Of a DNA stretch of 64,000 nt, positions 31,957 through 59,943 are shown in pieces (the stretch's first letter is position 1; the number at the start of each line of letters is the position of its first letter). The position numbers and the translations under genes are program-made. The DNA comes from Psammoneis japonica (Eukaryota), in the NCBI GenBank assembly GCA_008632985.1, contig QPGO01000172.1, positions 62,001-126,000 on the forward strand, written 5' to 3'. Below the pieces are notes generated by a model. It was given only the letters and a program-made list of their open reading frames with translations. It did not search any database and had not been told where the DNA came from.

Positions 31957-32346
31957 GACGCGTTCCAGCCCTAGGTGGGACTCCGTGTGACATTGGGCCC
32001 GTAGAATTCTACGTGCGAGCTCCGTAGTACGAGAATTTAATTAATGGATATATTCATCTTCACTATCAAATAAACGGCCAAGTTTGTGGTACAATTATGC
32101 CTCTTACCACTCGACGTTTTTGCAAATGCACCTGCCCTACGCGATTTTTAAGACATTATAGAATCGCGCTGTAACAAAAAATGTCAAAAGTTGTTGGACG
32201 GATCGCTCAATAACTGTACCGTAAAATGACACAAAATGTCAAAAAAATCACGTAGAAATCTACGTGCGCGACATACGACGTGATTCAAAAAACTATCGAT
32301 GTCACAGTTCAGTAGTACGAGGTCCCACCTAGACCTGGAACGCGTC
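31957..32346 (+). mobile_element. GAC-terminal MITE, subfamily 1, copy C (390 bp)
   Basis: ~25-bp TIR gacgcgttccagccctaggtgggac / gtcccacctagacctggaacgcgtc; TSD gcac/gcac. Confidence 0.95.
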
Positions 32347-33074
32347 GCACTTGAAGTGTGCCCTTTTTTGTGTGCCAGATGACCACGCAGAATTCCATGT
32401 GCAACTTCAGTTGCAAGTGTGCTTTTCAGTTGCAAGTGCACTTTTTGGGCAACCAAGTGTGCTTTGTGTTTCACTCAATGAGTTCAGCACAGCCATCAAT
32501 TTCAATCTGGTTTTTTCTCCCAAAGCTCTGTCATGCAATTTGCCATTGTCCGCAAAAGTGCAGGTGGTCAATTTCTTTGGTCATTTGGCGCTGTTTCAAT
32601 TGCAACTGGATCATTGAAAAAGTGATGATTCAGGAGCTTGGCAGATTTTCTGCACATTCCTGTGCAAGTTGTGTCTGCTGGGTTGTGTCGTGAATGGCAA
32701 ACTGAGTGTGCTTTGATTTGCAATCGTTGCAACTGGTCGCTGTGTTTCCATGCCGCACAAAATTTCTCTGGAATTCAACATGTCTTTTATCTTGCATTTG
32801 ACTTGCCTTTCCCGCCTTGTAAAGAAGCACTGGGGCACTGATTGGTGAGTGTAAAACCCAACTTCTTCACAATTGCACCATGTGGGCTGTTTGTCTGACC
32901 AACCTCTGACAAAATGATGTGGCAACCCAATTTTGTTTTTTGCAGAGGACTGCCGGACACAGCCACACTGCTGCAACAAGCTTGCTCTTCCAGGTGGACA
33001 AGAGCACCTGTTGCATGAAGAATCTGCTCTCTGGACAGGAATTTTTCCACCAATTTCTTTTGTCACAAGCAAGA

Positions 33075-36000
33075 ATGGAGCAGATTCAGTCTCAGCAGAG
33101 GGTGGCTGAAATCTTCCGGGTGATGGAGGCTGAGGTTGGCTCCAGGCACACCCAGCCCAGTGTCCGCTGTGCAGAGGAAAGGCACCACTCAGCTGCTGCT
33201 CCTGAGTCTATCCAGCCCCCTGTCATGAGCAAAAAAGGCTGTGGTGGAAGAGCATGAGTTTCCAAATTGCAAGATGCAGTGGTGGGCCAAAGGCTTGGGT
33301 GAATTTTCCCCTGCAGCAGGCTGGGCAATGGGCACTTGCTCAACAAAAAAGTCTGCAGATGGCTTGAGAAAAGTTTGCAAATGCTGCACGTGTGTCTTTG
33401 TTTGCTCCCTTTGTAGAGAGTTTCTTGAAAGGCCCCAGCAGCCTCAGACAGGAAGGAAGAAGTTTGGGTTGCCGCTCCCTCCCAAGCTGGTGTGCCCCAA
33501 TCATGAGCAAGAGTCAAAATTGGAGCACAAAAAGTGCACCTGCCTGCTGACCTGTCAAGAAGTCAGCACCAGCTCTTGGCTCATGAGCCACAAAGGGAGG
33601 CACCAACACCCAAGCCCCCACCACCAAAGCTCCCAGTGGCAGCACAAGGAAAGCCTGAGGAGTTTGTCAGAGCTGCTCCTGAGTTGACTCCAGCACAGCT
33701 GAGACTTGGAGCTGCAACCAGACCTCAAGTGTCACAGATTCATCCAGCCCTTCACAACAAAGACCACATGAAAAACATGAGAAAGAAGATCTTGAAGCAA
33801 ACAGGGATGAGCTCTTCCATTGCCAGCCTTGTGAATTTCCGAAAGGAAGTGGACCAGAGCTTTATTGTTTTGGAACAGCTCACTGCAGAGGATGCTCACA
33901 TCATCATCGTGCAAGACCAAGACATGATTGACATGCTGAGAGAGCCAGCGTCAGCCATGCAGACTGACTTGGTGGAGGGATTTGTTGTTGATGCAGACTT
34001 CCACGGGCAGATCAATGTCACCTTCTCTTTGCAGTTTGGCACAATGTTGCAGCAGTGGGCCCCAGTCTGCATTTCCATCTTGTTTGGCAAAACTTCTGCA
34101 CACTGCAAAGCCCACTGGCAAAGGGTGCTTCAGTGCTGCCAGACCAACAACTGGGATGATTTCTTGAACAACTTCCAAGGAAACACCACAAGCAACTTTG
34201 CTGGTGCCATTTGAAACGGCTTTTTTGCAGCCATGCAGGAGCTTGCACTTGAGCATCATGACAGGGAAGCCACAGATGAGGAGATTGCCCAGTTTTACAA
34301 CTTTTGTGATGTTCACTTTGAGAGTTCCCACTTTGAGAGGTCCCACATGAGGGTGGCCAGAAACTCTGCTGTTGTCAATCCAGACAGGGAGGACAACTTT
34401 AACCACTGTGTCAACAGCTTGAGGGGCTTTGGCCAAGGAGACTTTGCTCAGTTTGAAAAGTCCTGCGCAAGCTGCTGATCAGATCTCACCCAAATGCCGA
34501 GTCATGGCTGAAGTGGTTTCTCAACCCAAGGAGAGCAAGGATTTTCTTTCCTGCATGCAGGCAGCCAGATGAGCTGCAGCAGCAGAGGCATGAAAAGCTC
34601 TGCACAGACACAAATGCACAGGAAAATGTTGTGAAACAGCTTCAGTGCAGTGTGCCAAAGACCAAGTTGACCATTGGAGAAGCAGCTCTGCATGCTTTCA
34701 AGTTCTGCAATGCCAATGTCTTTGACAGGAAGGCAGCAGCCAGGGGAATTTCACGTCATCATGGAGCTTTCAAGACCATCCAGTCAGGCCACCAGAAGCC
34801 CAAGAGCAAAAGAAAGCAAGGAAGAAAGACAAATGATGGAAGAGCACCAGACACCACAAAGCAGTTGGCAGGGCCAAAAAAGAAGCCTGTGCCCAAAAAG
34901 AGGCCAGGGCAGGCAGCAAAGCTTTGTTCATTGAGCAAGAATCAGGCAGGATGCACCATGAAGCAAACAAGGATCAAGTTCAACACCCCATCATCAAAGA
35001 AAACTGCACCCGGGCATGCTGTGACCTCATTCCAAGGCATCCCATGGAGTGTGCCCAGCAAAGGAGACCGTCCTGGCATCAACAACACTTGCAGGCTGGA
35101 CAGCTTGTGTTGACTTTGCTGTTCTCACTTCACAAACAGCAGCTGATGAAGAAGCCAATGGCAGAGCTGGCTGACCCAGACAACTTCCTGTCAAAGACAC
35201 TCAGCTTGATGGAGAAGGGTGAGTTTGATGATGCCAGACACCTTTGAGTGAGCGACACTTCTGTTCTCAAGGACATGAATCGCCACATCAGAAAAAGTCG
35301 GTTTGCCAAGTTCAACATGTTTGGGTCACTCTCAGCCAGTCCAGGAGCTCCCTTCCCAGCAAGCCAGTCATTTTGAGCCAGCTTTGAGTTCTTTGAAAAG
35401 TGTGCTGCAGGTGACTCTTGGTGTCCTTCACACTTTTCTGATGAGGATGAAGATCATGGGTGCCCAAGGAAAAAGATCTTCAACACATTCCCCACCTCAG
35501 AATTTGACAGCATTCCAGCCACTGCTTCCAAACTTGCCTTGAGAGTGACTTGCAGAAGCATGGGAACTTTCAAGGTGGTGTTGGTGAGGGTGAGGATGGA
35601 GTGATGGTGGCAAGCAACACCCTGGAGGAGAGGCAATGCTGCGGCTTCCTGAACACCGCTGAAAAAGTCATGACGGAGTTCCCACACATGATGGTTTTCA
35701 CAAACAACCCAAAACCTGGCCTTTCATTGGGAAATTTGAAAACAGAGTTCTCTCTTTGTGGGGAACAGTTCAGCTTGAGAGGGACCTTGAATGGGGATGG
35801 TGGAGTCCACTTCACTTCATGCATCAGAGGAGAGGCAAGCTGGATCTTTTGTGATGGAATTGGGGGTGGTTTCCCTGTCTGGGAGAGGCGGATGTTTGGC
35901 AAACAAGACCAGGTTTTTCAGGGAGAGCACAGCTCCCAGATGGTCATCATGGCCACAGTGCACGAGGTCTCAGACTTGGAGGTTGGAGAGGAGAGCAGCA
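33075..36000 (+). mobile_element. Decayed Mutator-like transposase with N-terminal GCM-like Zn domain and downstream USP/C19-like peptidase domain
   Basis: GCM-like GWAM...KCC.CVFVC..C...RP...C.NH...H..C...H.G.H. MULE-like AMQTD, FCDVHF..S..R, WLKW...FFPA, TNAQEN and NDGRAPDTT. Cys box NNTCRLDS at 35081 and His box L.G...G.GGVHFTS..RG..SWIFCDG at ~35770-35860. Confidence 0.7.
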
Positions 36001-37639
36001 AGCCAGGGGAGCAAGAGCAAAGCAAGCCACCAGAGGAAAAGCAGTTGGAGATTGGAGAGGAGAGCAATGAGCCCGGGAAGCAACAGCAAAGCAAGCCAGG
36101 AGAGGAAAAGCAAGGCAAGCAACAGAAGAGGAAGAGAGCAACCTTGGGCAATGGTGCAATCAAGTGGAGACAAGTGGCCACAGCAGTCAATCTTGAGCTC
36201 AGGGAGAGGGGCAAGAAAGGGGGGAGATTGCCAACATGCTGCAGGGGTTTTGCAGCCAGCTCCTCTCTCAGGATGAAAAGAAGAGGCTTGTCCACACCCA
36301 TTGTGAGAAAAAAGACACAAGCTCAAGACAGAATGGCAGCTGCACTGCAGGCTGACATGCATTGGTGGCAAATTTGATGAGAAATCTCTTAAAAAATTGT
36401 TTGAGAAAGAGGAGCATCAAGCAGCCAGAGACCTTCAAGGGCAGCTTGAGCAGGCTGCCAAACATGTGCTGCACTTGATTTGAGGCTGAGGTTTTCAAGT
36501 TTTCTGCAAACAACAACTCTTTTCATTGTCCAATTTAGAACTGCTTTGTCTGCGCATTGTCAGCTTTTACCATGTTCATTGGAGCATCACCCACTGCTTG
36601 GTGCAAGGCGTTTCATCATTCTGGATTCGCCTGCACACATCTGCGTGAAAATGTACCGCACGGCACAGCGCACAACACCCTTACAAAATTTGTCCAGCAA
36701 TGGCGCTTCTGCCGTTGTCTCTAAGTTTGTACCATGGGCTGTATCCAGCTCCTCATGGAAATGGACTCACTCTTTGTTGCAGCGAGTAGAGAGCAGCGAC
36801 TCGACTACGAGATGTTATGTTTCGTGTTTTGTGATTTGATCGACCGTCGTCTTTCATGAAACACGACGTTCAACGTCGCGGTGTTCTTGTTCTTGATGAT
36901 GATGCGACGCGTTCATGCCGGGAAAGATTTTCCTATAGTAGATTTTCCCGGCGATTGCGGCCTACAACGATGAAGACGCTAAATTCCTGCTAGAAGTACC
37001 ATACCGTACTGGCATGGATACCTCCACGACAACTCACCCACGAGACGAAAGGGAAATATTGGTTCTTTTGGGCCGCCGCATGATCTTACTTTGATCTGCA
37101 TGTCTGCCGTGCTTCGTTTTGGGCAAGCCAAATTGGGTAGAAACGCTGAAAACTGGTGTGATGGGTAATGTAGGAAGTGTTGTTGCAGTAGGTTGGTCAT
37201 TTCTTGCATTGAAAGTAGTGGTCATTTTTCCATTTGACATTAGAAATTCTTTGCGCCAAGGACCTCTGGAAGGCGACTTCGAACGAATGGCGGGCTCTGA
37301 CTGAACAGGACGACACTACTGCCGTTGCTCCTACTGCCGTTTCACTTTGGAGCAATGACCCCGTGCGTGTTGTGGCCTCACAAGCTGGGTATAATGATAC
37401 TTTCGAGTAGTACGAAAACAAGGAACAATCTTTGACACAGAAAATCTAAACGGTTTATTCAATGCCACCCCAGTACGCGGTATTCTTGGCTCAGTTACTA
37501 CACCACCACAAGACAAACAAGAAAGTCATCCTCAAGAACAATCTCTAAAGTAGGAGACGGTCTTCACTAGGCTCCAAAATGGTAAGCGACAAAAAATCTT
37601 GGAGACTTCCATCTCACACCCCTCGTCTTTACGGTATCA

Positions 37640-40170: not shown

Positions 40171-40179
40171 TTCTAGAGG

Positions 40180-42460
40180 AGGATGCAATGTGCAATCATG
40201 AGTCCTTCCATCACAGGCATAAAATTGCAACAAAGAAACAGCTTTCATCAGAAATTACGCTCTTTTGATGAGTGGTCTGATGGCAAAGACCGTGAATGCG
40301 AGAAACCCCGTGCCGATGGCTTTGTGATCAAGAAAGCGTGGCCAGGACCACTGACATCCTTTGAAAGACTGTGTCCATCAATGGAAAAGAGGACAGGTGT
40401 GTAAACATCATGCAAGGTTGGCAGTCAAAGCAAATGCGGGATTGATCTTTGCACTGAATGTGGAACGATGGTGAAGTCCCCTGTGCTGACTCACACTGGC
40501 TTGAACAATGCGCCCCATCATCTGCAGTGGAATGTTTCTCTCTCAACAACAGCCCAGTGAGCACAGAGTGTTGCTTTCTTCAAATGAAGTGAGTCCTTTC
40601 TGATGGCAGCTCAACTCTGTTTCACACAGAAAGCAAAACTGCAGTTGACACGTCCATGGCTTTTCCAGACATGGCAATGAAGGCAAGGTCATTTTCCGAC
40701 AGGGGATGAAGTTTAAGGTTTGAGGTTCTTTTGGTTGAGAAAGAATGCAACGACTAGAGAGAAAAGAGCTGTTCATTTGTGATGATGGAGGAGATCACAG
40801 AACATCATCAAGAGCGGGGCCTCTGCGATGGGAGCTGCGCGGACTTTGACTGCAACAACATCACCAGATGATGAACACGACATCCACCCCTTCTGCCAGA
40901 CACTTTCTCAAACTCACCAACCAAGTCAATCCTCTGACCTTTTGTTGCTTGCTGCCACTTTCTTTTTCTTGAGATTCAATGTCGGTGCTCATTTGGAAAG
41001 GTGGGCCCATCATCCCAGTTGACATGGTCAACCTTGGTGGAGTCATGAAATGTTCCTGACAATGCCAAAGTCTTGTGGGAACACTGCCATTGGCACTCCA
41101 CATGGCCAGCTGACCACACCAGCTCATCGCATTGGTGGTGCAAAGAGGACATGATTTTTGGGGACAAGGCTGTGCACAAACAACCTCTCTTTGACCATTG
41201 TTGTGAATGACTGGCTTTTGATGGCCACTTTCCCATCACTTGTGATCCAAAAGATTCAGAGAACATTGTTTCTTCCAGGGCATGCAGAGGTGAGTCTTGA
41301 AGCAGTGCATTGTGAGAGTGTGCCTTGAAGCGCATCTTGTTGAGAAAGCACTGCATGTCATGAGGCATGTCTTGAAGTGTTGCATGTTTTAAGGTGCATC
41401 TTGAGGCGCCTCTTGAGGTGGCGCGTCATGTCTGAAGTCACCTTGTCTCGCTGGAACAACAACCTTGTCACTGCAAAATGCAGACCTCCCAACTGCCTGA
41501 CATCAATCAGGCCAAGTCATTTTGGACCTTCTTTTTGGATCAGAAGGCCTTGAGGTGTGTTTTGAGGTGGCTCTTCAGGAAATCTTTGGCGCTCCCACAC
41601 AAAGTGTGTGGACCTCGCAACAGCAACCCAGCGTTGGTCAGATCAAATTGTTTCAAACCTCTTTTGCAGATCAGAGGGCAACAAGAAACAACAATTTGGA
41701 CACACATTGACCCAGTTTTGTGGCAGTCTCATGACACTTGTCAAGAGACACACACAAGCTCATGAGTGTGGTGGCTTGCCTTTTTGCACAAGAGGAGTTC
41801 GCAACAATGAAAGGGCAACAAAGCAACTTTCATCGCCGCTGTGAAAAATTGTGTTTGTTGTGATTGCAGTGTGAAAAATGAGCAATGCTCTCTGTTCTTG
41901 GATGCACTTGGCTGTGCACAGCTGTTGAGCAGAAAATGTGAAAGCTTGTCCTGTGGCAACCTCCAGCCCAAACTTGCCAATTTTTAATTTTTGACTGGCA
42001 GCATCAGCAGTTTGTGTGCATGCAGCTTTGTTTAGTGCATGTGGGGTGGGGCACTCCACTTGCCACTTGCCACCTGCCTTTGTGAAACTGGCTTGGCGAG
42101 ATCCCAGACTTGCTTGGCGGCATTGTGGGCTGGGTGGTCGTCCTCGGGAGAGATGAGAAAACAAAAGCGCCGCCATCCAAGCCTCCTCCTCCTGCTGCTG
42201 CCAAAAACTGAGGGCTTCATTTTGCTTCTTTTGCAGACTGGTGGTGTGTGAGTTCACCAGCTTCCAAAGTCACCAGAGAGTTTTGCCAATTCTTCTCTCC
42301 CTCTCTGTCTCTCTGCTGCGACTTTGGTGACAGAGCAGAGGTGGCTGCGGGTGCTGGTTGTCGCTCACCGTACCATGGATGCGCAGGCGCGCATGAATCC
42401 GCACATGGTTGTCCCCGCCGCGGTTTCGGTCATGCACAATGATGCGAAGCCGCACAGCGA
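40180..42460. other. TpA-depleted hypermutated domain 4 (edges approximate)
   Basis: TA nearly absent; domain ends just upstream of the PP1 ATG. Confidence 0.8.
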
Positions 42461-42498
42461 TTGCAAAGTATAAAAGCAACTGAACATAGCAAGCCACA

Positions 42499-43776
42499 AT
42501 GCCTTTGAAAAAGCTCAATTCGTTATTTCCAAGAAGAAGGTCTTGGCGTCGCGGAAGTGATGACTTTCCAACGGAGGATCAGATAACGGCGGTAGCTGAA
42601 GCAGATAAAGAAGAAGAAGAAGTAGAGCAGGAGGTGAACAAACAACAAGTCGATACAGAAGTAGCGGAGAATGATGTATTGGACGAAGCTGCAATTCAAG
42701 ACATGATTAAACGACTAATTTCGGTGAAGTCAGAGCCAGAAGGGACATCGGTCTACTTGTCGGAAGAAGAAATGACGAGTCTTTGTCACTTAGCAAGGCC
42801 GATTTTCTTACAACAGCCGGTATTTTTAGAGTTGGTGGCGCCCATGAAGATATGCGGAGACATACACGGCCAGTTCCGTGACTTACTCCATATGCTTGAC
42901 AGTGTCGGGTACCCTCCAGCAAACAACTTTTTATTTCTGGGAGATTATGTCGACCGAGGCAAAAACTCGATTGAAACGATTTCCTTATTGCTTGCCTTTA
43001 AGGTGTTGTATCCTGAGAATTTCTTCTTGTTGCGAGGAAATCACGAATGCGAGACTGTCAGTCGAGTCTATGGGTTTTATGACGAATGCAAGCGTCGCTA
43101 TTCTGTGAAACTGTTCAAGACCTTTTGCAGTGTCTTTGATTGTCTTCCCGTCGCAGCTCTTTTGGAGGAGCGTGTCATTTGCATGCACGGTGGGTTATCT
43201 CCCGACATACAGAGCCTTGCCGACATTTTGGATATAACTAGGCCATGCCCAGTGCCTGAATATGGACTCATGTGCGATTTACTCTGGTCTGATCCGACTG
43301 AGGTCGAGGTGGGTACTTCTTCTCTCTTCACTTTCTCTTTTTCCGGTTTGATCTTGTCTCTAGAGTTCGTTTCTCATGGGAATTTGTTTCTGTACGACTG
43401 TCAGGGCTGGGGTGATAATGAACGTGGCGTATCTTGGGTATTCGGTGCGGATGTGGTGGAGCAGTTCTTGCGTGCTCATGACCTTGATCTGATAATTCGT
43501 GGTCATCAGGTAGTGGAGGATGGGTACGAATTCTTTGCGAACCGGCAACTGGTGACGCTCTTCTCTGCTCCGAATTATTGCGGTGAATTTGATAACGCTG
43601 GGGCCATGATTATCGCCGATGAAGATTTGACCTTGAGCTTTCAAGTCTTTGGCACTTGTCAAGAAGCACTGGATGGCATTGCAGATCGGCAGGTCCAGAC
43701 TAACGACGAAGGAGAAACTGAGACGAATGGTACCGAAGATGTCATCCACGAGAACGGCGACAGCAGCGCTCCATAG
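42499..43776 (+). CDS. PP1: Serine/threonine protein phosphatase PP1 catalytic subunit (96-bp in-frame intron 43309-43404)
   Basis: [45 protein letters not shown] and [11 protein letters not shown]. Removing GTGGGT...TCAG restores [18 protein letters not shown]. Confidence 0.95.
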
Positions 43777-43955: not shown

Positions 43956-45083
43956 CTACCACACTTTGTACCATGGCTTGGTTGCAGCAAACGGGACGCC
44001 GAGTTCCAGCAACTTTGCAAAGGCCTTTGCAAAATCCTTGAAGAAGGCATCTTCGTCCTTTGCGTAGAGTTCAACCCACTTGTTGAACGCCGGATCCTGA
44101 ACGAGCGCGAGATCACTGTAGAAAAAAGCATGGTCAGGTATCGCGAACAATACATCGTCGTGGTTTCGGCATGTACTTACGCTGGAAGCATCATGAGCTG
44201 ACCGTTCGAGTTTTCGTACTGGTCGGGTCCCGTCCACGGCTTGCCATTGTGCGTAGTCTTGGGAGTCCACTTCTCCTCCTTGAGCAAGCGGAAATATTCG
44301 TTCGAAAATGTGTTCTCTGCGAATGTCCATGGTCCCCAATATCCGGACGCTTCCGTGTGGCATCGACCCATTGCATGCGCCCCTATAAGCGCAACGATTT
44401 CGCGGTCGTCAAACCCCATGCGGCCAAAGATATCCCGGACATGAGCAATCGTCTTGTCGCGTGATCCCTTGTCAGCATCCGGCAGACGTCCATCTGGAGG
44501 AGAGGTTTCACCGCTCTCCATGTCAGCCCTTCCCAACCTGAACTTGATGGTTGGTCCTCCGGCTTCTTCCACAGCCACAACGCCAGCCAACGTGTACAGA
44601 TCCGCATACGAAATCTCTGGGTGCTTTGTTTTGACCGGTTCCAACGCATCACGGGCGATATCCAATCCGGCGTTGGCACCCCAGTCCTTTTCGGGAGCAT
44701 GGCGAATGCGACCACCATCCGACCCGCCCAACTTATCAGCCTTACCATACGTGCCAGAGCAGTGCCATGCAAGACGGATAAAGGTTCCCAGAAGCGAGGT
44801 CCCGTCTCCGCGCTTCTCCATGTCACTCTCAATGACGTCAACAATGGATTCTCGAACCTTCTTGATATCGACAGACTCCTTCGCATGGACTTGAGAAGGG
44901 GAAGCAGCTCCATAGAGCGTGAAAGCTCCAATCGTCATGACGGCAGGGGCAGTCAAGCGCTGTATATGTTTAGAAACACAACGAGATGATTCACAGACGC
45001 AGTGAGCGTTGAAAAACGGAAAAGTCGAACCATGACATCAGGAAAGTACTTACAGATGCGGTGACACGAGCAGCGTTCATCAT
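43956..45083 (-). CDS. CCP1: Cytochrome c peroxidase (class I heme peroxidase), 3 exons; introns 44960-45053 and 44116-44180
   Basis: [42 protein letters not shown] and FAKLLELGV. Two GTAAGT...CAG introns. N-terminus [12 protein letters not shown] is presequence-like. Confidence 0.9.
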
Positions 45084-51206: not shown

Positions 51207-53408
51207 TCAGTGCTCCGCTCTGGTGCAACTCGCGTTTCCAGTTTCCATGACAAGGCGGCAGGACAGATTGTGGCAATGACACGTTACTTGAGATTTTTCT
51301 GCTTCGTTTTTTCTCGCTCCGCTTCTCCCGTATTCTTGGAAAGTGGAGACGCGGTTGTTGCGGTTGGAGCTTTTGTTACCGATAGAGGTGGTTCGTCCGT
51401 TGGTTCTTTCGTTACGGTCGTCAGTAGTCTTGGTGCTCAAGTCTCTCTCTTGGGTTTCCGTGTCCGTTTGAGATACTTCCTCTGCAGTCGACGCCTGCTT
51501 TTCCTTATTCAAGGATGTAGACTTTGCACTTGCATCCTTAGTCGAAGAAGACGCTCTGATGCTCTCGCTCGAACCGGCTTCTTCCTTTGATGCCTCGTTG
51601 GGGCGGCCCTTCGCCGTAGTTTTCGATTTTCGTTTTGTGGTCTTGGCTGCCTTTGAAGCTGGCGCTGCTGTTTTAGTGCGGTCTCGTTCCACAGCTGCAA
51701 CATCAATGTGCATACACTTGAGACCCGAGACAAACACAGGATCCTGAACAACTTCTGGGTATTTGAGCAATATTTGCTTCAACTCCTCCCGTGCTTGAAC
51801 TTTGGTTTCGGCATCAAGAGCCTTGTGCAACATGGCGATGCGTTCGTTTGTGCGTTCCTCCTCGACAATGGCTCTCTCAAAATTAGGCAAAACTTGTGTC
51901 GGAAGCATAACATCGGCGCGGGGTATTCCATCCAACATACAATACAATCTAGTTGGTTCTTTCGGTTGCGGCTGCCCCGGTATCGGGCTCTTGATTGTCA
52001 CCTGCACAACACCCGTTGCCACCAACACTTCAACAATATGTTGCAATGTATTGGGTCCCAGTATGACATGCCCACCACGTGGTATGTAAGACTCTCGAGA
52101 CGATTGTATTGGTGGGAGATTGTATTCCAGTTGCTCCAGAGAAGGCGGCCCGTCTGTACAAGTACAGGGAAGAAAGAGTACGAGGTGAGCTTCGTTGCGA
52201 GGAAGCATTGAATCATCAACACCACAAATCCACTTACACGTTTGTAGCAGGGACATTATGTCATGAGAAGTTTGAACTACAACTGGGTCCGCAAGGGGCA
52301 TGTGCGGTGTTACAGGAACAGCACGTGACGGATTGCCGCTGGTATCAGCTGCGACTTTGCGCTTCTTGCTCGTCGGCTCACCAGGCGGAGTTGTGTTTGC
52401 ATGCTTCTTGTCACTGATACCTTGACTTGTCCCTTGCTCGGCGTCGGTGGCGATTTTCTTTACGCCATGTTCTGATGCAGTTGAAGATTCTCGTACTGCT
52501 GCTGCTTTCTTAGACACGGTTGGAGTCGTCTTATCCGCGGTCGATGTGTGGGACTTCTCAGCAGGATGATTCTTACTGCTTGCAGCAGCCGGTTTCTTCG
52601 CAGATGACGATGAATGTTTTGCTACCGACGGTCTGTCAATGGTAGCGAAGTTTTTTTTGCTCTTCAAAAATCGCGATACTGAAAACACTTATCGAAAATC
52701 GGCTTTCGTCACCCACTACATGACACCAAGTTGCAGTGGGTGACGAAAGCCGATTTTCAATATCGGCCATTGTGGAGGCTCCAGAACAATAGCAAAGTCT
52801 TATCATAGAAACAAGCTGTCCCTAAGTAATTTATATAGTATACAAATCTGTATGACCTTTCCGAACTCCGGATTAAATGTCATATTTTTTATAAAATTAA
52901 TAATCGAATATAAACATAAAAATTAATTACAGATAATCGAACATAACAGTTATTTTTTCTTAAAAGCAACTAACAAGTTTTCAACGAAAAACATTCGCTT
53001 TCCAGTCACCCCGACCGATGCCGGCACAACATGCGTTGGACCTTATTCAGCTCGTCACGAGCTTTCGATCGACATGTGGGTCATGGGGTCTGCGAGGTCA
53101 TCCTAAAAAAAACTTCTCAACCATTGACAGACTGTCGGTGCATTGCAGCTTGCACCCCGTGAAAGAGGTGCATTGCAGCCGTAGACCTGGCATGTTGACG
53201 TCACGCGCACATTTTGTGCCACAACACTGTGCAAATCACCTCGTCCCGTGACGTCATCACTCTCCGAAATTTTTGCGCAACGAGCCGAAGGAGTTTTTGG
53301 TGGGTGACCATGATGAACGCGCAATGATTCTGGTGGCAAACAGCAAGTTTGTTCTCGACGGCACATTGTAGAACTGCCATGTTTTCTTTCCTTCATTGAA
53401 GCGTGCAA
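51207..53408 (-). pseudogene. Hypothetical protein split by a TA-target MITE; 5' part hypermutated
   Basis: Removing 52625-53138 and one TSD fuses ORF 53103-53408 (..RGASCN) in frame to ORF 51207-52688 (VAKHSSS..). Confidence 0.65.
52625..53138. mobile_element. 514-bp MITE with ~34-bp TIRs and TA target duplication (Tc1/mariner-type target)
   Basis: ccgacggtctgtcaatggtagcgaagtttttttt ... aaaaaaaacttctcaaccattgacagactgtcgg. Flanks are TA (52623-24) and TG (53139-40). AT-rich core with a 24-bp-stem hairpin at 52694-52758. Confidence 0.8.
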
Positions 53409-53806
53409 CTTTTATGGTGGAAAACTGTCAAAAACATCTTGTTCACAGCTTGCAAACTTGGAGGACCCATGCAAAATCCCCCTTGTCACAAGTCGAAGTT
53501 GCATCTGGACAGAAGTTCCAGTTGCCCGAAGTTCAATGCTTCAATGGATTTGGGCCACATTGATCTTTGGGAACTGTTCTGAAGAGAAGCGTCGTGAAAT
53601 GACGACGAGAGCATCCATTTTGATGCTTCCGATCATGAGTCAGATGCCGGAACATGTGTTGTGAGGTGAGCACTCGAGGCCAAGCTTCACAACATTTTCT
53701 TTTGTTTTCCTCACAAAATCCTTTGTTTTCGACTTCTTCATTGTTGGGGTGAAGCTTTCTGGCTTCTCGTTTCATGAAGAAAAAGAATCAGAAGAGTTCT
53801 GCTGGT

Positions 53807-54202
53807 GACGGGTTCCAGTCCTGGGTGGGACTTTTTGTGACATTGGGCCCGTAGAATTCTGCGTGCTAGCTCCGCAGTAAAATTGTCAAGCAATGGATGT
53901 GTGAATGATCGCCAACAGAAAAAGAGGCAATTTTGCGAACGCATCTCCTCCTCCACACTTGAAGCACATTCTTTGCAGCATGCCCGGGTGTGTTCTTTAG
54001 ACAATGAAGAACACACCCAGTGCATTTTTATTGACACAAGTGCAGATGACAGAAAGCCTTTGGCTTCGCAAAACAGGCAGTGTGGAACAATTTTTTACAA
54101 TGGAACACGTGGAAATGTGCGTGCGAAACACATGACGGATGATAAAAAACAATTGTGTCACAGTTCAGTGGCACGAGGTCCCACCTAGAGCTGGAACATG
54201 TC
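53807..54202 (+). mobile_element. GAC-terminal MITE, subfamily 2, copy B (396 bp)
   Basis: gacgggttccag...ctggaacatgtc; TSD tggt/tggc (1 mismatch); colinear with copy A. Confidence 0.9.
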
Positions 54203-55571
54203 TGGCCGAAGAGAGTGTTTTTCTCTCATTTTTTGGCACCTCAGAACCGCGAGTCATTCGAGGGCCGGCAGTTTCACATCAGCGGTTGTTGTTCTAAGAG
54301 ACTCAGTCATTTTCGAGTTCAACATTGTGTCTTTGAGACTTTCAGGTCTTTCAATGGAAAGCAACCGATCAAAAGGACACCATCATCTCGCAGAAGTGGG
54401 TCAGACTCGGATGTTTGCGTGGTGGCTGGAAAGCACACCAGGACAGAGACGTCCATCGTCAAGGCCAGATGAGCTCCAAAGCATGCTCTTTTAACACTCA
54501 TTGGATTTGTGTCGAAATGCTCAAGCACAAATTGTAGAATTGGCCACACACTGGGTTGCGTTTGGCTCTCCATCGAGCCCAGACCCAATCTGAAGGAATC
54601 GAAGTGCGCAACGAGTGTTGGGGCAACACCATCATTAAGACAGCTCCCCACTGAGAAATCACAGTGCTTCAAATTGTCTTGCTGGCTTGTGTGACAGGTT
54701 CAAATGCTTTGGCAAGGTGTTGGTTCCCCTGCTGCATCGCAGGCGCAGCGAAACCCAGAGAGTGCGTTCCGTGACTCAAACCAAACGTTTGAGGACCCTC
54801 TCCTTGCAGCAGTTGTCACTGTTTTCTTAGATGAACCAGCTTTAGAGCCCTGGATGGCTGGCTCAGGTGTGTGTTGCATCAATGATGGAGTGCTTGTGGT
54901 TGCCATGTCACTCAAAGAACTTCTTATGTTGGTTTGGTCGGATGAGCCTGACCCGTCAAAAATCTCCATTCCAACAGCTTCCGGCATCTCAAGCACTTGA
55001 AAAACTTTGTCATTCATCCCAACCACCAACAACAATTGCTTTTGACCACACATGGCAACAAAGGAGTTGCCGGTGGCATGCACCTCTGCTGGTGAGGTCT
55101 TGGGCAGATTCGCACTCAGCGGCAACGACAACACGCGAATGTGGGTGAGTCAGTGAAATGCAAAAAACATCGCTCAAATCGAAACTTTGAGGAGGAATCG
55201 CCACACAGTGTCCTTCTGTTGGGAACAACAGAGACTGTTGCACCCCGATTCCTCCTCAATTGTCAACATTGACAACCTCGGAACAGTGCATTCGTCATGG
55301 TCGACGGCTTTTTTTTCCTGCACAAAAAGCACGGAGAACGCGGATGACGGACAAGCAAAAATCAAAAACATTTAGTCGAATTGTTCGAGCTGTGATGCAA
55401 CTCTCACGCAGAACTTTCACAGAGTGCTTGTCACGCAGCCAACCTAGATGTCGTGTTGATCCTGTGCAACTGGCAGGAAAATTTATTTGCCATGCAAAAG
55501 GCCGAAGTAAAAGACTCAAACACATCATCAACAAAACACACAAAGCAATTGACATTTGACATGCACATCCA

Positions 55572-58500
55572 TTGTGACGACTCCGTCCTGACAAGCGACC
55601 CCACAATGAAACCCTTGTCGAAGTCAATCGCACTGCGGTGCGCTTTGAACTCCTTGACAAGTTTTTCAATTGCCTCCAGAGACATGGCATCCTGCTTGAT
55701 CTCTTGAGAGATGCCAGGCTGTGAAAGAACCATGCAAGCACAAATGTGTCGTCGAGCGCATCAAGAAAACTTGCGAATTCTCTCAGTGGCAAGCACATCG
55801 GCCGGTGATGATTCTCACACCAGCGCTCTAAAGTTCTTTTTTCCCTTTTTCCTTGACAAAGGTTGCAGACGATGGCATTGCTTTGCCAGTCCCCAGGAAC
55901 ATTCTCTGTGCCTTCCCCAGCCATTTCTGGATGACACTTGGGCGTTCGATCGATTGTCACACCCATTTTTCGACCCATCGTTTGCAACAACGTCTCCTCA
56001 TTGACGAAATCATCGCAGGTAGACATCAAGTGTAGCAGAGATGTGGACTTGTCAATCTCGCCGTCTGCACCCTTTGTGCCATCCATTGCACACTTGCTGG
56101 GGTTGTTTGGATCAATGAATCCACGCTCGTGCAAGATTTGCTTCAAACCTTTTGCTTTGTCGCACCATCCATGCTTCACTTTTTGAACCGTTTCTTCCAC
56201 AGGTGCGTTGTTGATCTTGGCCACATCAATCAAATCATCCTTCTTCTTGCTCCTGATGTTCTTGACATTCTTTTGCAGGAGTTTGTCACAGAGTTCAGGG
56301 CGCGAAAACTTCCGAGTTTCAGTTTCTCCTGCGACAGGTGCGTCACACTTCTCGGCTTGTCATTGCTCCGGTGTCATCCAATGCGGCCCCTCATCATTCT
56401 CACCAAAAACCATTGTCTGCATTGATCCTGCAGACAGCACTCCAATGGCCTCAGCACATGGGCCTAGAAAGCCCTCTGCCTGCAGAATCTCAGTGGGGTG
56501 CATTTTGCTCTGGCTGCCGCCAACGCCTGCGTTCATCGTGCGTTTGTCACAAATCAGTCCGTCGGCTCTCTGCTTGTCATGCCCGCAAGAATGGTCAAAG
56601 AGGAAATGACATTCAAGCTGTGGACACATGACCTTCAAACAGTCGACACAATCCTCCAGCTGGACCAACATGTGGTTGTAATTCCAGTGGCCTTCGTTGT
56701 TGGCGCCACATTCAAACTCACAAAGAAACGGGCTCTCAGTCAGTTTTGGCTTGTGTTGCTTTTTACCAAACACCACTTCTGCGGCTTCTTCATCGGTGTG
56801 GCATTTGCCTGCACGAGTTGCGTTTGTCTCTGCAAGCTGCTCTGGTGACACATCGGCATCACGCATGAGGCCAACCTCTCGGCACTGGAACAAGGACTCC
56901 ATTGCGCCTTCACCGTCATCTTTTGGCAGCAGAGGTCTTTCACCGTCAGGACCTGACCAAGATTTTGTGCTGAGCAAGCACTGCTTGAAAATGGCTTCGT
57001 CTTGTCCAAAGATCATAACTGGCTTTTCATTTGGGTCCTTGCGCACGCTTTCGCTCCCCCCAAATTGCACAGACAGCTTCTCGGCGAGGATTGGATGGGT
57101 GGGGTCTATGACGGTGTCGACGTGGCATTCCACAAAATCGTCCCCATCAACTTGGCATTCACACCCTGCTTTGGCTGGGAGTGCTTCAGCCGCGATCAGG
57201 TCCGTTGCAACAGCTTTTGGTGGCTGCACCCAGCGCAAGGTGCATCGTTCTTTCGTGAGGCATCTACGGACCATTGCATTCCTGCACCTCACATTGTCCG
57301 GTCGTTCATGATTGTCAACGCAGTGCATCTTTTTGTTTGGTCCATGTTTGAAACCAAACTGGTTCATCCAATTAGAAACAGCATTGGAGGAGATGCTTTG
57401 TTGGTTTTCCCCGGCAAGCAATCCATGCTGATTCAGGAACTCCCGCTCCGATTGAAAAATTTCCTCCCCGTTCTTGCAGCGGCCTTCATTCTCTCTCTTT
57501 GAGAATTCCGGTGCGAGCATTTCGTGGAAGTGGTCTGCGGCCACCTCAGTGGAAAGTCGAGATAGATTGGATGACATGAACTCAATGAATTTCTGCTTCA
57601 TCTTCGGGTGCACTTGGAATGCCGGTGGATCTCCCTTTCCTTTTGGGCGCGGGTGCGAAAATGAATTTAGGCACCTGAAGATCTCATGCCACACAGCTGC
57701 GGTTTGGCAACTTTTTACAAAGTCAACACCTGCACCGCTAAGATCATCTGTGGCCAGCTGGCAACACTGCAGCCAGGCAGTCTTCCCTTCCGGCAGCCTC
57801 TTCAACGCGCAGTCCAGAGCAATGGCGAGACACTGGCATCGCAGCGCAGTCCAGAGCAATGGCGAGACACTGGCATCGCAGTCGCATCACGTGCACGTCG
57901 TTCTGCATGCAAAGATCATCGACGCGTTCCAGCCCCAGGTGGGACTCCGTGTGACATTGGGCCCGTAGAATTCTACGTGCGAGCTCCGTAGTACGAGAAT
58001 TTAATTAATGGATATATTTATCTTCAACATCAAATAAACGGCCAAGTTTGTGGTGCAATTATGCCTCTTACCACTCGACGTTTTTGCAAATGCACCTGCC
58101 CTACGCGATTCTTAAGACATTATAGAATCGCGCTGTAACAAAAAATGTCAAAAGTTTTTGGACGGATCGCTCAATAAGTGTACCGTAAAATGACACAAAA
58201 TATCAAAAAATCACGTAGAATTCTACGTGCGCGACATGCGACGAGATTCAAAAAACTGTCGATGTCACAGTTCAGCAGTGCGAGATCCCACCTAGACCTG
58301 GAACGCGTCCATCTGGATCCCCACCTTCAATGACTTCTTTCCATCCATCACAAGATGCAAAACCAGTTGTTAACTTGTCAATCCGTTTCTCCATTGCAGC
58401 TTTTGCACTCTCCCCGTCTGCTGCATTAAAAAGACACTTCACCCTCTTGTCATCCCAGTGGCTGCCGACAATCTGGGTCAAATTGTCAGTGTCAGAGTCC

Positions 58501-59201
58501 TCACCAGAGCTTTCTTTTTCTTCTTCTCCTTCTTTTGATGCGTTGCTGTTTGTGTCTTCTTTTCTTTTCTTTTGCTTGTGCTGGTTTTTGCTTGTCGTTT
58601 TTACCAGCGCTCCTGCATCATGCACCAACGGCCGTTTGTTCATGCCGTCTCGAGTTGCCGCTTTCTCCTCGTGTTTCTTCAAAGCCAGCATCACATCAGT
58701 GAGTTCTTTCATCTTTCCAGGAACAAACTTTGGCACTTCTCCTTCTTCACAGGCACAGTGGGCCACGACGTTGGCACTCTTCTTGCCATCGCACTGGCCC
58801 TTGAATTTCTTGCGAAAAATTCCCTGCATGTTCTCATCTGCTGTGTCTTTGTCAACATTGGGGAAACCCTTGGATGCTGCTGAATTCAGTGCTGATGCAT
58901 TCAAGGTTGTGTCCTTGTCAAATGTGCACGCTTCTTTTAGCATGTGGACAAAGCAATTTGCTTCCATCCATTTGCAATGAAACGTGGGGGTCTTGCACGC
59001 TGCCATGAACTGGGAAGTGACAATTCCGGTGGGTGTCGATCGAGACACTCGGAGCACATCACCTTGGTGGCTCATGATGACAGTTTGCAAGCGATCTGCA
59101 AACAAACCTCCAAGTGGACGCAATTGGGAGTTGTCAAAAAACGCACCTTTCGGGCAGCGCCATTTTGGTTCGATGCTTGTTCTTTTCCCCGTGCTTTTCA
59201 C
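55572..59201 (-). pseudogene. DDE transposase (IS630/Tc1-like), hypermutated, split by MITE D
   Basis: FGQDEAIF, GHWN, FLFDHSCGH, KGLKQIL.ERG, TPKCHPEMAGEG and KAHRSAIDFD. In-frame TGA at 56360, a 37-bp tandem duplication (57809/57846) and a frameshift near 55905. Confidence 0.85.
57921..58309 (+). mobile_element. GAC-terminal MITE, subfamily 1, copy D (389 bp)
   Basis: Same TIRs as copy C; TSD catc/catc; excision restores the transposase frame (GDPDDLC). Confidence 0.95.
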
Positions 59202-59553
59202 ATCCAGAAACGGCCGCCAATGACGTCATTTTTGAAAAGTCACAAAATTCCAGTGTGTTCCACACAATTTCTGCTGCATCTGCATTTTCTGCGTGACAAG
59301 CTGTGCCTGCACTATGACGTTAGCCGGGTGGGGCCAGTTGGTCGCGCACGTTTGGGTTCGATGCAGCCATGCAACCAGCCATGCCCTGCAGGAAGAGCTG
59401 TTGGTGGCGCGTGAGCAGAAGCAACAAAGCAAAGAACACGGCGTGGGTCAAAACGTTGTAAAATGACGCAACAACAAGCAGCGAGAAGAAACCCAACTTG
59501 ACCCATGAATGCAGCGCATGCATGTTGTCCAACCACTTCAATGGCACCTCGCA

Positions 59554-59943
59554 GACGTGTTCCAGGTCTAGGTGGGACCTCGTGCTGCTGAACTGTGACA
59601 TCGATGGTTTTTTGAATCACATCGTATGTCGCTCATGTAGATTTCTACATGATTTTTTCTACATTTTGTGTCATTTTACGGTGCACTCATTGAGCGATCC
59701 GTCCAACAACTTTTGACATTTTTTGTTGCTGCGCGATTCTACAATGTCTTAAGAATTGCGCAGGGCAGGCACATTTGCAAAAACGTCGAGTGGCAAGAGG
59801 CATAATTGCACCACAAACTTGGCCGTTTATTTGATGTTGAAGACAAATGTGTCCATCAATTAAATTCTCGTAATGCGGAGCTCGCACGTAGAATTCCACG
59901 GGCCCAATGTCACACGGAGTCCCACCCAGGGCTGGAACGCGTC
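59554..59943 (-). mobile_element. GAC-terminal MITE, subfamily 1, copy E (390 bp)
   Basis: Reverse-complement copy of C/D; TSD cgca/cgca. Confidence 0.95.

What the first reader, a model, noticed from the sequence alone, without database searches (positions are those of the whole stretch)
31957..59943. Three MITE copies give direct, polarized proof: the same TA becomes TG in one copy and CA in another
Seen, C/D/E in common orientation: cccTAgg / cccCAgg / cccTGgg; acTAtcg / acTGtcg / acCAtcg; agTAgTAcg / agCAgTGcg / agCAgCAcg; ggaTATAtt / ggaTATAtt / ggaCACAtt; ggTAcaa / ggTGcaa / ggTGcaa; aatgCAcc (C, D) vs aatgTGcc (E). Reciprocal TG/CA alongside a retained TA is best explained by an ancestral TA mutated on either strand. 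The load rises C < D < E, which suggests progressive accumulation after insertion.
Basis: seen in the sequence. Interest (0 to 1): 0.85.

Follow-up and report, generated by a model that had tools for sequence, protein, structure and literature searches.

The report
TA-erasing hypermutation of diatom transposons
In this diatom-like genome, blocks of transposon-type DNA have had almost every TA dinucleotide changed to CA or TG, and the three mini-transposon copies catch that change half-way, which points to a targeted kind of DNA mutation that I could not find described.

Summary
All six quoted strings stand in the three copies. Transitions hit TA positions about 30 times more often than ordinary positions (12.3% against 0.4%; p=5e-11).

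The direction, TA to CA or TG, is right, but three copies cannot prove it. A dead transposase gene 50 bp from copy D does. At 14 of 14 conserved tyrosine (TAY) columns it has no Tyr: Cys 7, His 6, Asn 1. It keeps 143 of 165 other conserved residues.

The copies belong to a larger pattern. About 45% of the window is sharply bounded blocks with TA at 0.05 and CG at 0.37 of expectation, and CA/TG at 1.69. Genes nearby are normal. Young mini-transposons sit in these blocks as TA-rich islands. The change is DNA-level, hits both strands without strand runs, prefers RTAY, and is not RIP, CpG decay or ADAR/APOBEC editing. Of 80 metagenome relatives of the transposase, 79 are TA-normal.

Three corrections:
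- Part of copy E's load is inherited from a subfamily.
- At two quoted sites the family majority is TG or CA.
- One quoted site looks like an old CpG.

The chemistry is inferred, not shown.

The parts
31957..32346 (+). Mini-transposon (MITE) copy C, 390 bp, TSD GCAC; 29 TA (rho 0.94), least decayed
57921..58309 (+). MITE copy D, 389 bp, TSD CATC; 24 TA (rho 0.80)
59554..59943 (-). MITE copy E, 390 bp, TSD TGCG; 13 TA (rho 0.46), CG 22
4855..5250 (-). MITE copy A (sister subfamily, 396 bp); 5 TA (rho 0.18); differs from B by 37 transitions and 2 transversions
53807..54202 (+). MITE copy B (sister subfamily, 396 bp); 8 TA (rho 0.29)
30860..31416 (.). Sixth element F, 557 bp, same 12-nt termini, TSD TGCT; 54 TA (rho 0.95), CG rho 1.46; flanks hold 1 TA per 500-540 bp
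4500..6900 (.). TA-depleted block 1 (TA rho about 0.06, CG about 0.7); holds copy A and a 566-aa open frame with 1 Tyr
13250..17250 (.). TA-depleted block 2 (TA rho 0.01-0.25, CG 0.2-0.57)
25400..36350 (.). TA-depleted block 3 (TA rho about 0.03, CG 0.03-0.38 in its background), interrupted by the young elements F and C; a terminus-like motif lies at 25386-25397
40250..42250 (.). TA-depleted block 4 (TA rho 0.03-0.16, CG 0.22-0.44)
53000..64000 (.). TA-depleted block 5, which runs off the window end; holds copies B, D, E and the transposase pseudogene
55587..57871 (-). Dead DDE-type transposase-like gene with one in-frame stop and one frameshift; conserved Tyr codons changed to His/Cys codons
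42490..45037 (.). Normal-composition reference genes: PP1-type phosphatase (42490-43776, +) and haem peroxidase (44177-45037, -)

Best explanation
Shown: the three copies belong to a very large family of about 390-bp cut-and-paste mini-transposons with 12-nt conserved termini and 4-bp target duplications. They differ mainly because TA dinucleotides have been turned into CA or TG. A slower CG to TG/CA decay runs alongside. TA is the older state. The same change has run almost to completion in five sharply bounded blocks, about 45% of the window. One block holds a dead transposase gene, and all six mini-transposons lie in blocks. Neighbouring genes and tandem repeats are untouched. The change acts on DNA, since these are DNA transposons. 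It hits both strands equally and site by site, without strand runs. It spares TA in YTAR context and removes it most completely in RTAY. It erases tyrosine codons and TAA/TAG stops, so dead genes keep long open frames. Relatives of the same transposase in other hosts show CpG decay without TA loss, so TA loss is a separate, lineage-specific process. Inferred: silenced, transposon-type chromatin in this organism carries a TpA-directed chemical event on both strands. I think the most likely form (about 0.35) is a modified base at the palindromic TpA, an oxidised thymine of the 5hmU/5fU kind or a modified adenine. Such a base would mispair and give A:T to G:C, the way 5-methyl-CpG decays to TpG/CpA. 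A DNA-acting adenine deaminase of the Tad/ADAT type is second (about 0.2). The mini-transposon copies are snapshots: F and C are fresh, D is early, E is midway, and B and A are nearly finished. Part of the difference was already present in their source copies.
For: Direction. At the 14 alignment columns where at least 70% of 13 homologues have Tyr, the pseudogene has Cys (TGY) 7, His (CAY) 6, Asn 1 and Tyr 0. It keeps 143 of 165 other conserved columns (Fisher p=1.6e-11). Its Tyr content is 0.2% against 3.3-5.8% in homologues. At 32055, 94% of family depth has T, where C has CA, D has TA and E has TG. At none of C's 29 TA sites do both letters reach the share of the listed rows, so a CG consensus is excluded (I infer that the 40 listed rows are the top 40 by share). 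Fresh elements have TA rho 0.94-0.95 and CG rho about 1.5, inside DNA with 1-2 TA per 500 bp. In the blocks, CA+TG number 4949 against 76 TA, so TA loss must far outrun TA gain.

Targeting. Blocks have TA 0.05, CG 0.37 and CA/TG 1.69. The rest has 0.59, 1.01 and 1.17. Block edges are sharp within 100-200 bp. In six normal-domain ORFs, TA across codon positions 3-1 is 0.62 and CG is 0.98. The tandem arrays at 9148-10296 and 22244-23198 are not depleted.

Separate from CpG decay and from the element family. Of 80 metagenome loci of the transposase family, 79 have TA rho 0.45-0.84. 16 of them have CG rho below 0.4 with TA 0.45-0.77. Only L063 (TA 0.17) shows Tyr to His/Cys.

Symmetry and context. 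CA and TG counts are near-balanced in each block. Runs tests on A and B give P=0.63 and 0.64. Surviving TA in RTAY context is 2 of 76 against 415 of 1293 outside (p=6e-10). In YTAR it is 36 of 76 against 222 of 1293.

Not an assembly artefact. A 200-nt contig of run X1 matches 31784-31983 without a difference, across a block/element junction.
Against: At 5 of C's 29 TA sites the family-wide majority letter gives TG or CA (A>G 56%, 68%, 53%, 83%; T>C 86%). Taken alone this would make C's TA derived there, and it needs a founder-subfamily explanation. Reverse changes exist: D has TG>TA at 32238, and C has 2-3 apparent TA gains against the D/E majority. C and F sit almost unmutated inside the most depleted block, although C has about 5 private changes. 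So the process is not a steady treatment of everything in a block; it may be episodic, or over in that block. Only one of the five blocks has a recognisable transposon gene. 95 ORFs from the blocks gave only weak Ank, Duc1 and DUF hits. All data come from one 64-kb window, and the DNA run may be the sample the assembly came from. The half-site context test within the mini-transposons is not significant (13 of 84 against 7 of 78, p=0.24). No modification, enzyme or methylation data exist here, so the chemical step is inference only. 6mA is not known to be mutagenic, and I know of no natural eukaryotic DNA adenine deaminase (recalled).
Confidence: 0.72

Rival explanations
1. Old CpG sites: the variable sites were CG in the source element. 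Methyl-C deamination gave TG in one copy and CA in another, and TA arose by double hits.
For: CpG decay does occur here. Block CG rho is 0.37. E lost 5 CG sites. CG/TG and CG/CA differences exist between copies. The quoted aatgCAcc/TGcc site has G at 43% of family depth.
Against: None of the five copies has CG at the three-state sites, while 22-28 other CGs per copy are kept in the C/D/E subfamily. No TA site of C has both alternative letters at high share. Conserved Tyr codons cannot come from CG. TA is lost, not gained, with decay: 29, 24, 13, 8, 5. 16 metagenome relatives with strong CpG decay keep normal TA.
Confidence: 0.03
2. No targeting: a genome-wide mutation bias against TA and CG. 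The blocks are simply old neutral DNA at equilibrium, and the rest is held by selection or is young.
For: Window-wide TA rho is 0.37. The blocks lack recognisable live genes.
Against: TA across codon positions 3-1 in six normal-domain ORFs is 0.62 and CG is 0.98. Non-coding-looking tandem arrays in normal domains keep TA about 0.55. Block edges are sharp within 100-200 bp. A roughly 30-fold per-site rate would strip weakly selected TA everywhere.
Confidence: 0.08
3. A DNA-acting adenine deaminase of the Tad/ADAT kind, perhaps also deaminating C, is directed to transposon DNA. It turns A in 5'-TA-3' into inosine, which is read as G.
For: The change is A>G on either strand with a 5' T. The better-removed half-site is TAY, like the U33-A34-C35 of the tRNA substrate (recalled). 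Iyer et al. 2011 (PMC3239186, passages seen) list stramenopile-specific deaminases with SAM and tudor domains, which they link to small-RNA systems. They also cite a trypanosome A-to-I tRNA enzyme that performs C-to-U on DNA.
Against: There are no strand-coordinated runs, which single-strand deaminases usually leave (E shows 8 TG and 7 CA changes interleaved). I know of no natural DNA adenine deaminase in eukaryotes (recalled). No candidate gene could be sought because no genome is held.
Confidence: 0.2
4. RNA editing: ADAR-like A-to-I editing of hairpin or double-stranded transcripts of the elements, copied back into DNA.
For: Mini-transposons with inverted ends form hairpin RNA. The A>G change with a 5' U preference resembles ADAR or fungal A-to-I editing (recalled).
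Against: The elements have terminal inverted repeats and target duplications and, where coding, a DDE-type transposase, so there is no RNA copy step. Whole 2-11 kb blocks are affected on both strands equally. AA/TT is not depleted (1.25 against 1.15). There are no strand runs.
Confidence: 0.03
5. Error-prone repair: T:G mismatches from methyl-C deamination recruit patch repair by a polymerase eta-like enzyme, which mutates A in WA motifs nearby.
For: TA and CG loss coincide in the same blocks. Polymerase eta prefers WA with A>G (recalled).
Against: TA is fully lost in blocks where CG is only mildly reduced (TA 0.06 with CG 0.67-0.74 at 5001-7000). AA is not depleted. Relatives with CG rho 0.04-0.39 keep TA.
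Confidence: 0.07
6. Sequencing or assembly artefact at modified bases.
For: Base modifications can cause systematic miscalls in some long-read assemblies (recalled).
Against: Contigs built from a separate read set reproduce the block/element junction exactly and hold 82% of the sampled words of a 10-kb stretch. Different copies show different states at the same site. An unrelated metagenome contig (L063) shows the same signature.
Confidence: 0.02

Closest known systems
Repeat-induced point mutation (RIP) of Neurospora and other fungi
   Same: Dense transitions confined to transposon or repeat DNA, with sharp edges and a dinucleotide preference. Element genes are inactivated without deletion.
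   Different: RIP changes C to T, mostly CpA to TpA, so it makes TA and raises AT content. Here TA is destroyed, the change is A:T to G:C, and GC content stays level (0.49 against 0.475). Tandem duplicates in normal domains are not hit. No RID-type gene could be sought.
Methyl-CpG decay in silenced transposons (for example vertebrate Alu; methylated diatom elements)
   Same: A palindromic dinucleotide decays site by site on either strand into TG or CA. Copies of one family show CG, TG and CA at the same site, and fresh copies stand out as islands. CpG decay is also present here (CG rho 0.37 in blocks).
   Different: The main target here is TpA, not CpG, and it decays faster: 12.3% against 3.0% per position and copy. 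I know of no mark at TpA. 16 relatives elsewhere show CpG decay without TA loss.
ADAR and APOBEC editing of retroelements (for example Knisbacher and Levanon, PMC4866542, seen in a search listing only)
   Same: Host enzymes hypermutate mobile elements and the mutations become fixed in the genome. ADAR gives A>G.
   Different: Those act on RNA or single-stranded cDNA of retroelements and leave strand-coordinated clusters. Here DNA transposons and whole blocks are hit on both strands without runs, and the context is strictly TpA.
Very-short-patch repair and CTAG scarcity in E. coli (recalled, not checked here)
   Same: A repair bias turning T:G mismatches into C:G depletes a TA-containing word and enriches CA/TG-containing words.
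   Different: That is genome-wide, tied to one pentanucleotide, and mild. Here every TA context is removed, down to 5% of expectation, and only in blocks.
Thymine hypermodification at TpA (5-hydroxymethyluracil of dinoflagellates, base J of kinetoplastid telomeres; recalled; one search found nothing for diatoms)
   Same: An enzyme-made modified T lying preferentially in TpA, and concentrated in silent or repetitive DNA in kinetoplastids.
   Different: I know of no report of it in diatoms, and none that it erases TA from the sequence. It is a lead for the chemistry only.

Membership tests
MITE (non-autonomous cut-and-paste DNA transposon) | Terminal inverted repeats | tested here: met
   The 12-nt terminus GACRYGTTCCAG (1 mismatch allowed) occurs at both ends of all six elements: 13 matches against 1.2 expected. 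Longer imperfect inverted ends appear.
MITE (non-autonomous cut-and-paste DNA transposon) | Target-site duplication | tested here: met
   4-bp duplications: C GCAC, D CATC, E TGCG, F TGCT. B matches at 3 of 4 and A at 2 of 4.
MITE (non-autonomous cut-and-paste DNA transposon) | Small, non-coding, high copy number | tested here: met
   The elements are 389-557 bp. 2932 contigs of run X1 were laid on copy C. Summed depth is 68,000-578,000 in the element against about 60-600 in the flanks. The tool warns that summed depth is not a copy number.
MITE (non-autonomous cut-and-paste DNA transposon) | A matching autonomous element with the same ends | tested here: inconclusive
   A dead DDE-type transposase gene lies 50 bp from copy D, but no matching termini were found around it.
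RIP (fungal repeat-induced point mutation) | C:G to T:A transitions that create TpA from CpA/TpG | tested here: not met
   The direction is opposite: TA is lost.
RIP (fungal repeat-induced point mutation) | Triggered by sequence duplication as such | tested here: not met
   The tandem repeats at 9148-10296 (4 x 287 bp, 98%) and 22244-23198 (2 x 477 bp, 96%) keep TA rho about 0.55 and show few TA-type differences.
RIP (fungal repeat-induced point mutation) | RID/DIM-2 type cytosine methyltransferase homologue; action in the sexual phase | not testable with these tools
   No genome is held.
Methyl-CpG decay | CG lost to TG/CA in silenced DNA | tested here: met
   CG rho is 0.37 in blocks against 1.01 outside. 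It accounts for the CG changes only, not for the TA loss.
Methyl-CpG decay | Explains the TA/CA/TG sites | tested here: not met
   In addition, 16 CpG-decayed relatives keep normal TA.
ADAR-type hyperediting | RNA intermediate and strand-coordinated A>G clusters | tested here: not met
   These are DNA transposons. Runs tests give P=0.63 and 0.64. CA and TG are balanced.
Tc1/mariner-IS630 (DDE_3-like) transposases, for the pseudogene's family | RNase-H-fold DDE/D catalytic domain recognisable by profile or fold | tested here: inconclusive
   8 homologues gave no Pfam hit. The Atlas feature search points to DDE_3 clusters at 0.90-0.95, which is a lead only. The seven best Foldseek rows are mariner Mos1, but weak (E 3e-3 to 0.12, TM 0.22-0.26 on the target). 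The 4-bp non-TA duplications of the mini-transposons do not fit Tc1/mariner.

The most novel reading that the evidence does not exclude
This diatom lineage has a second 'CpG-like' dinucleotide. A so far unknown enzyme system marks or deaminates TpA on both strands, specifically in silenced transposon chromatin, and so rewrites A:T to G:C. That would be a natural DNA A-to-G (T-to-C) hypermutation used as genome defence. It disables element genes by erasing tyrosine codons while leaving long open frames.
Probability: 0.5. Interest if true: 0.92.

Novelty: new variant of a known kind. Interest (0 to 1): 0.85.

Why it matters
The known transposon-directed hypermutation systems deaminate cytosine (RIP, methyl-CpG decay, APOBEC) or edit RNA (ADAR). 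A DNA-level, block-limited change of TpA to CpA/TpG would be a new chemistry of genome defence. It would imply either an unknown mark at TpA or a natural DNA adenine-deaminating activity, and the latter would interest base-editing work.

It also has practical consequences for annotation:
- TA-free blocks lose TAA and TAG stops and fill with long false ORFs. 95 of the 163 ORFs of 110 aa or more in this window lie in the blocks.
- Public protein sets already hold Tyr-less products of such blocks: 4 of 150 listed homologues.
- The TA content of an insertion becomes a built-in clock for dating transposon activity in this genome.

Tried and rejected
Searches that found nothing or gave too little:
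- A scan of metagenome contigs with a 25-letter pattern from the element end gave 0 matches.
Only the 40 rows with the highest shares were shown and 66 were hidden, so linked dinucleotide states could not be read. Run X2 gave only 1 laid contig.
- Homologue searches for two other block ORFs found nothing: 62721-63446 (-) and 5164-6861 (-). The Tyr test therefore rests on one gene plus L063.
- Cluster look-up for names of the homologues was not available.
- A purine/pyrimidine-alphabet self-comparison, which is blind to transitions, found no old repeats linking the blocks beyond those already seen.
- A search for decayed termini around the blocks found only the 25386 motif.
- Pfam on 95 block ORFs gave no transposon domains. 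Pfam on 52 of the 68 normal-domain ORFs gave nothing at E<=1e-4. I left out 16 that overlap the phosphatase or peroxidase, the tandem arrays, or element F's left flank.
- Our earlier findings gave nothing on this genome or sequence, and only unrelated phage and virus notes by words.

Tests that were not significant:
- Strand-run tests on A and B.
- The TAY against TAR half-site test inside the mini-transposons.
- I considered testing whether TA loss scales with transversion age. The counts (C 1:2, D 3:3, E 11:4) are too small to tell steady from episodic decay.

Other:
- The first try of the search for related loci with a 32-row alignment failed for lack of a conserved stretch. A 9-row alignment worked.
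- Nine literature searches found no description of TpA-specific decay of transposons in diatoms or elsewhere. Subscription journals are not covered.

Full report
**1. The observation.**
One search finds three about 390-bp copies:
- C at 31957-32346 (+)
- D at 57921-58309 (+)
- E at 59554-59943 (-)

It also finds two copies of a sister subfamily, A at 4855-5250 (-) and B at 53807-54202 (+). A low-stringency BLAST finds no further copy in the window. TA counts fall from C 29 to D 24 to E 13, then B 8 and A 5. CA+TG rises 47, 50, 68, 78, 79, and CG goes 28, 28, 22, 14, 16.

Within subfamilies almost all differences are transitions at YpR dinucleotides:

| Pair | Transitions | Transversions | Transitions at YpR |
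|---|---|---|---|
| C/E | 28 | 6 | 26 of 28 |
| D/E | 28 | 7 | 27 of 28 |
| A/B | 37 | 2 | 31 of 37 |

Against a majority-of-three consensus, the rate of transitions per position and copy is 12.3% at TA, 3.0% at CG, 2.1% at CA/TG and 0.4% elsewhere (p=5e-11).

**2. What the elements are.**
All copies end in the same 12 nucleotides (13 matches against 1.2 expected). They are flanked by 4-bp duplications: GCAC, CATC and TGCG, with decayed ones at A and B. A sixth, longer element, F (30860-31416), has the same ends and the duplication TGCT.

Laying the contigs of a public DNA run on copy C placed 2932 contigs. Summed depth is 68,000-578,000 inside the element, against about 60-600 in the flanks. 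The tool warns that this is not a copy number, but it indicates a very large family.

The window itself is diatom-like nuclear DNA. Its peroxidase ORF has only diatoms and Triparma (Bolidophyceae) among the named best hits, at about 62-72% identity. No genome is held.

**3. Polarity.**
Three copies cannot polarise a CA/TG pair, because a TA ancestor and a CG ancestor both need two steps. Four further lines of evidence settle it.

(a) *The transposase pseudogene.* The 508-aa open frame at 56363-57886 (-), 34 bp from copy D, belongs to a large protein family: 2013 representatives at E<=0.001, best 1.6e-89. tblastn maps the dead gene to 57871-55587 (-), that is 50 bp from copy D, with one in-frame stop and one frameshift.
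- At the 14 columns where at least 70% of 13 full-length homologues have tyrosine, the window has TGY (Cys) 7 times, CAY (His) 6 times, AAT once and TAY never.
- It keeps 143 of 165 other conserved columns (p=1.6e-11).
- At the looser 50% threshold the 22 Tyr columns give Cys 11, His 6, Phe 2, Trp 1, Asn 1, Tyr 1.
- Tyrosine needs TA, so TA was there first and became CA or TG.

(b) *Family-wide letters at 32055.* Here 94% of family depth has T, where C has CA, D has TA and E has TG.

(c) *No CG consensus.* At none of C's 29 TA sites are both alternative letters among the listed high-share rows, so a CG consensus is excluded. This rests on my inference that the 40 rows shown are those with the highest share. 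All 40 have 0.35 or more, whatever their depth.

(d) *Fresh elements are TA-rich.* F has 54 TA in 557 bp (rho 0.95) and C has rho 0.94. The DNA around them has 1-2 TA per 500 bp.

**4.
- At acTAtcg, 83% of family depth has G.
- At the first TA of agTAgTAcg, 86% has C.
- At ggTAcaa, 56% has G.
- At two further TA sites of C, G is at 68% and 53%.

So at 5 of 29 sites C's TA is in the minority. I read this as large subfamilies founded by already mutated source copies. Supporting this, 7 of E's about 18 YpR-site differences from C (6 at TA sites, 1 at the aatgCAcc CA site) carry the letter that 43-86% of the family carries. Part of E's 'load' was therefore inherited, not acquired after insertion.

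The site aatgCAcc/aatgTGcc has G at 43% with T below the listing share, which fits an old CpG. Reverse changes also exist, for example TG>TA in D at 32238.

**5. The larger picture.**
The window is bimodal. Five blocks together make up about 45% of the window:
- about 4.5-6.9 kb
- about 13.25-17.25 kb
- about 25.4-36.35 kb
- about 40.25-42.25 kb
- about 53-64 kb

| Sampled DNA | TA obs/exp | CG obs/exp | CA/TG obs/exp |
|---|---|---|---|
| Blocks (23.5 kb) | 0.05 | 0.37 | 1.69 |
| Rest (31.75 kb) | 0.59 | 1.01 | 1.17 |

The rest includes a PP1-type phosphatase and the peroxidase. Block edges are sharp within 100-200 bp. GC content is the same in both (0.49 against 0.475), as expected if TA gains G:C while CG loses it. 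AT is lower and GC higher in the blocks, as expected from TATA becoming TGCA.

All six mini-transposons lie inside blocks as TA-rich islands. A terminus-like motif lies at 25386, the left edge of the largest block. The flank of C is itself a low-copy repeat whose paralogues differ at CA/TG/CG sites.

**6. Controls.**
- *Not genome-wide.* In six ORFs of the normal domains, TA spanning codon positions 3-1 is at 0.62 and CG at 0.98.
- *Not triggered by duplication as such.* The tandem arrays at 9148-10296 and 22244-23198 keep normal TA.
- *Not a property of the transposon family, nor a by-product of CpG decay.* Of 80 metagenome loci that encode relatives of the transposase (80 kept of 124 confirmed), 79 have TA at 0.45-0.84. 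16 of these have CG below 0.4.
- *One more case elsewhere.* Only L063 has TA at 0.17, and it too shows His/Cys at tyrosine positions. It has no DNA similarity to the window's copy.
- *Other public proteins.* Among the 150 listed protein homologues, 4 have under 1% Tyr, and two of them show the same Tyr to His/Cys pattern.
- *Not an assembly artefact.* A 200-nt contig of run X1 reproduces a block/element junction without a difference. That run may be the assembly's own sample.

**7. Properties that bear on mechanism.**
- The elements are DNA transposons, so the change is made in DNA.
- CA and TG are near-balanced in every block.
- Within E the 8 TG and 7 CA changes are interleaved. Runs tests on A and B are flat, with P=0.63 and 0.64. 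Sites therefore decay one by one on either strand.
- The few surviving TAs in the blocks are almost never in RTAY (2 of 76 against 415 of 1293 outside) and are enriched in YTAR (36 of 76 against 222 of 1293). CG survivors show no such context. The same trend inside the mini-transposons is not significant.
- TA decays faster than CG. It is complete in blocks where CG is barely touched.
- Because TAA and TAG vanish and few new stops arise, dead DNA keeps long open frames. 95 of the 163 ORFs of 110 aa or more lie in the blocks, and the long ones checked have 0-1 Tyr.

**8. Explanation.**
*Shown:* a block-limited, DNA-level, strand-symmetric, site-autonomous TpA to CpA/TpG change, with slower CpG decay beside it. 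The mini-transposon copies are stages of this change.

*Inferred:* the cause is a TpA-directed chemical event tied to the silent state of transposon-type DNA.
- I favour (about 0.35) a modified base at the palindromic TpA that mispairs, by analogy with methyl-CpG.
- A DNA-acting adenine deaminase of the Tad/ADAT kind is second (about 0.2). The TAY preference recalls the U33-A34-C35 substrate. Iyer et al. 2011 (PMC3239186, passages seen) list stramenopile-specific deaminases joined to SAM and tudor domains, and cite a trypanosome A-to-I tRNA enzyme that can deaminate C in DNA.
- Repair-patch, RNA-editing, CpG-origin, untargeted-bias and artefact readings each meet direct counter-evidence, given under the rival explanations.

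*Unexplained:* C and F are almost intact inside the most depleted block, although C has about 5 private changes. The process may be episodic, or over in that block.

**9. Comparison and novelty.**
- It works like RIP and like methyl-CpG decay in that it is transposon-limited, dinucleotide-specific and gene-killing.
- It fails the defining tests of RIP: the direction is opposite and it is not triggered by duplication.
- It is not CpG decay, because the target is different and the two are separable in relatives.
- It is not ADAR or APOBEC editing, because there is no RNA or single-strand signature.

Nine literature searches found no description. Subscription journals are not covered.

The transposase family has no Pfam model. 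A confident fold of an intact homologue (pLDDT 84) has only weak matches to mariner Mos1, in line with a DDE_3 lead from the Atlas.

**10. Limits.**
- The evidence comes from one 64-kb window.
- Only one block has a recognisable transposon gene.
- The family-wide letters come from contigs of one sample, with only the top rows visible.
- There are no methylation, modification, expression or enzyme data.

Noticed in passing
window 30860-31416: A sixth, longer (557 bp) mini-transposon, F, with the same 12-nt termini and a 4-bp duplication (TGCT). It is very TA-rich (54 TA) and inserted in TA-free DNA. The same enzyme seems to move at least three element families.
   Followed up: partly
window 55587-57871 (-); proteins P0121-P0270: The dead gene belongs to a large protein family (2013 representatives at E<=0.001) without any Pfam model. 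An intact member folds confidently (pLDDT 84) and matches mariner Mos1 only weakly. It is probably a little-described DDE transposase group that is common in aquatic metagenomes.
   Followed up: partly
window blocks (for example 5164-6861 -, 55298-57886 -): TA loss removes TAA and TAG stops, so the blocks carry long overlapping open frames on both strands (95 of 163 ORFs of 110 aa or more) with 0-1 Tyr and 5-6% Cys. Gene callers will predict false proteins here. 4 of 150 public homologues are such Tyr-less products.
   Followed up: partly
L063 (metagenome contig, 1501 bp): This is the only one of 80 metagenome loci of the transposase family with the same signature (TA rho 0.17, Tyr to His/Cys). 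It is unrelated at DNA level to the window's copy, so the process exists in at least one more genomic place or organism.
   Followed up: partly
L046, L057, L064, L070, L071, L075 and 10 more loci: 16 of 80 relatives have CG rho 0.04-0.39 with normal TA. This is classic CpG decay of this transposon family in other hosts.
   Followed up: no
window 25386-25397: A terminus-like motif (1 mismatch) sits exactly at the left edge of the 11-kb depleted block. No partner was found at the right edge (about 36.3 kb).
   Followed up: partly
window 31948/32354 and 32351-32546: A contig of single-copy depth joins 31948 to 32354 and continues at about 86% identity. It is a paralogue of the flank without copy C. 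The flank is a low-copy repeat (depth 200-950) whose copies differ at CA/TG/CG sites.
   Followed up: no
window 9148-10296; 22244-23198; 5250-6584; 19355-20250: Several tandem arrays (287 bp x 4 at 98%; 477 bp x 2 at 96%; about 300-bp units inside a depleted block; about 180-bp units). The first two have normal TA. The array in the depleted block shows many CA/TG double differences between units.
   Followed up: partly
window 5164-6861 (-) and 61662-62249 (+), 62721-63446 (-): There are weak ankyrin-repeat and Duc1 domain hits in depleted blocks. These may be decayed host-type genes or captured fragments. No homologues were found by word-indexed search.
   Followed up: partly
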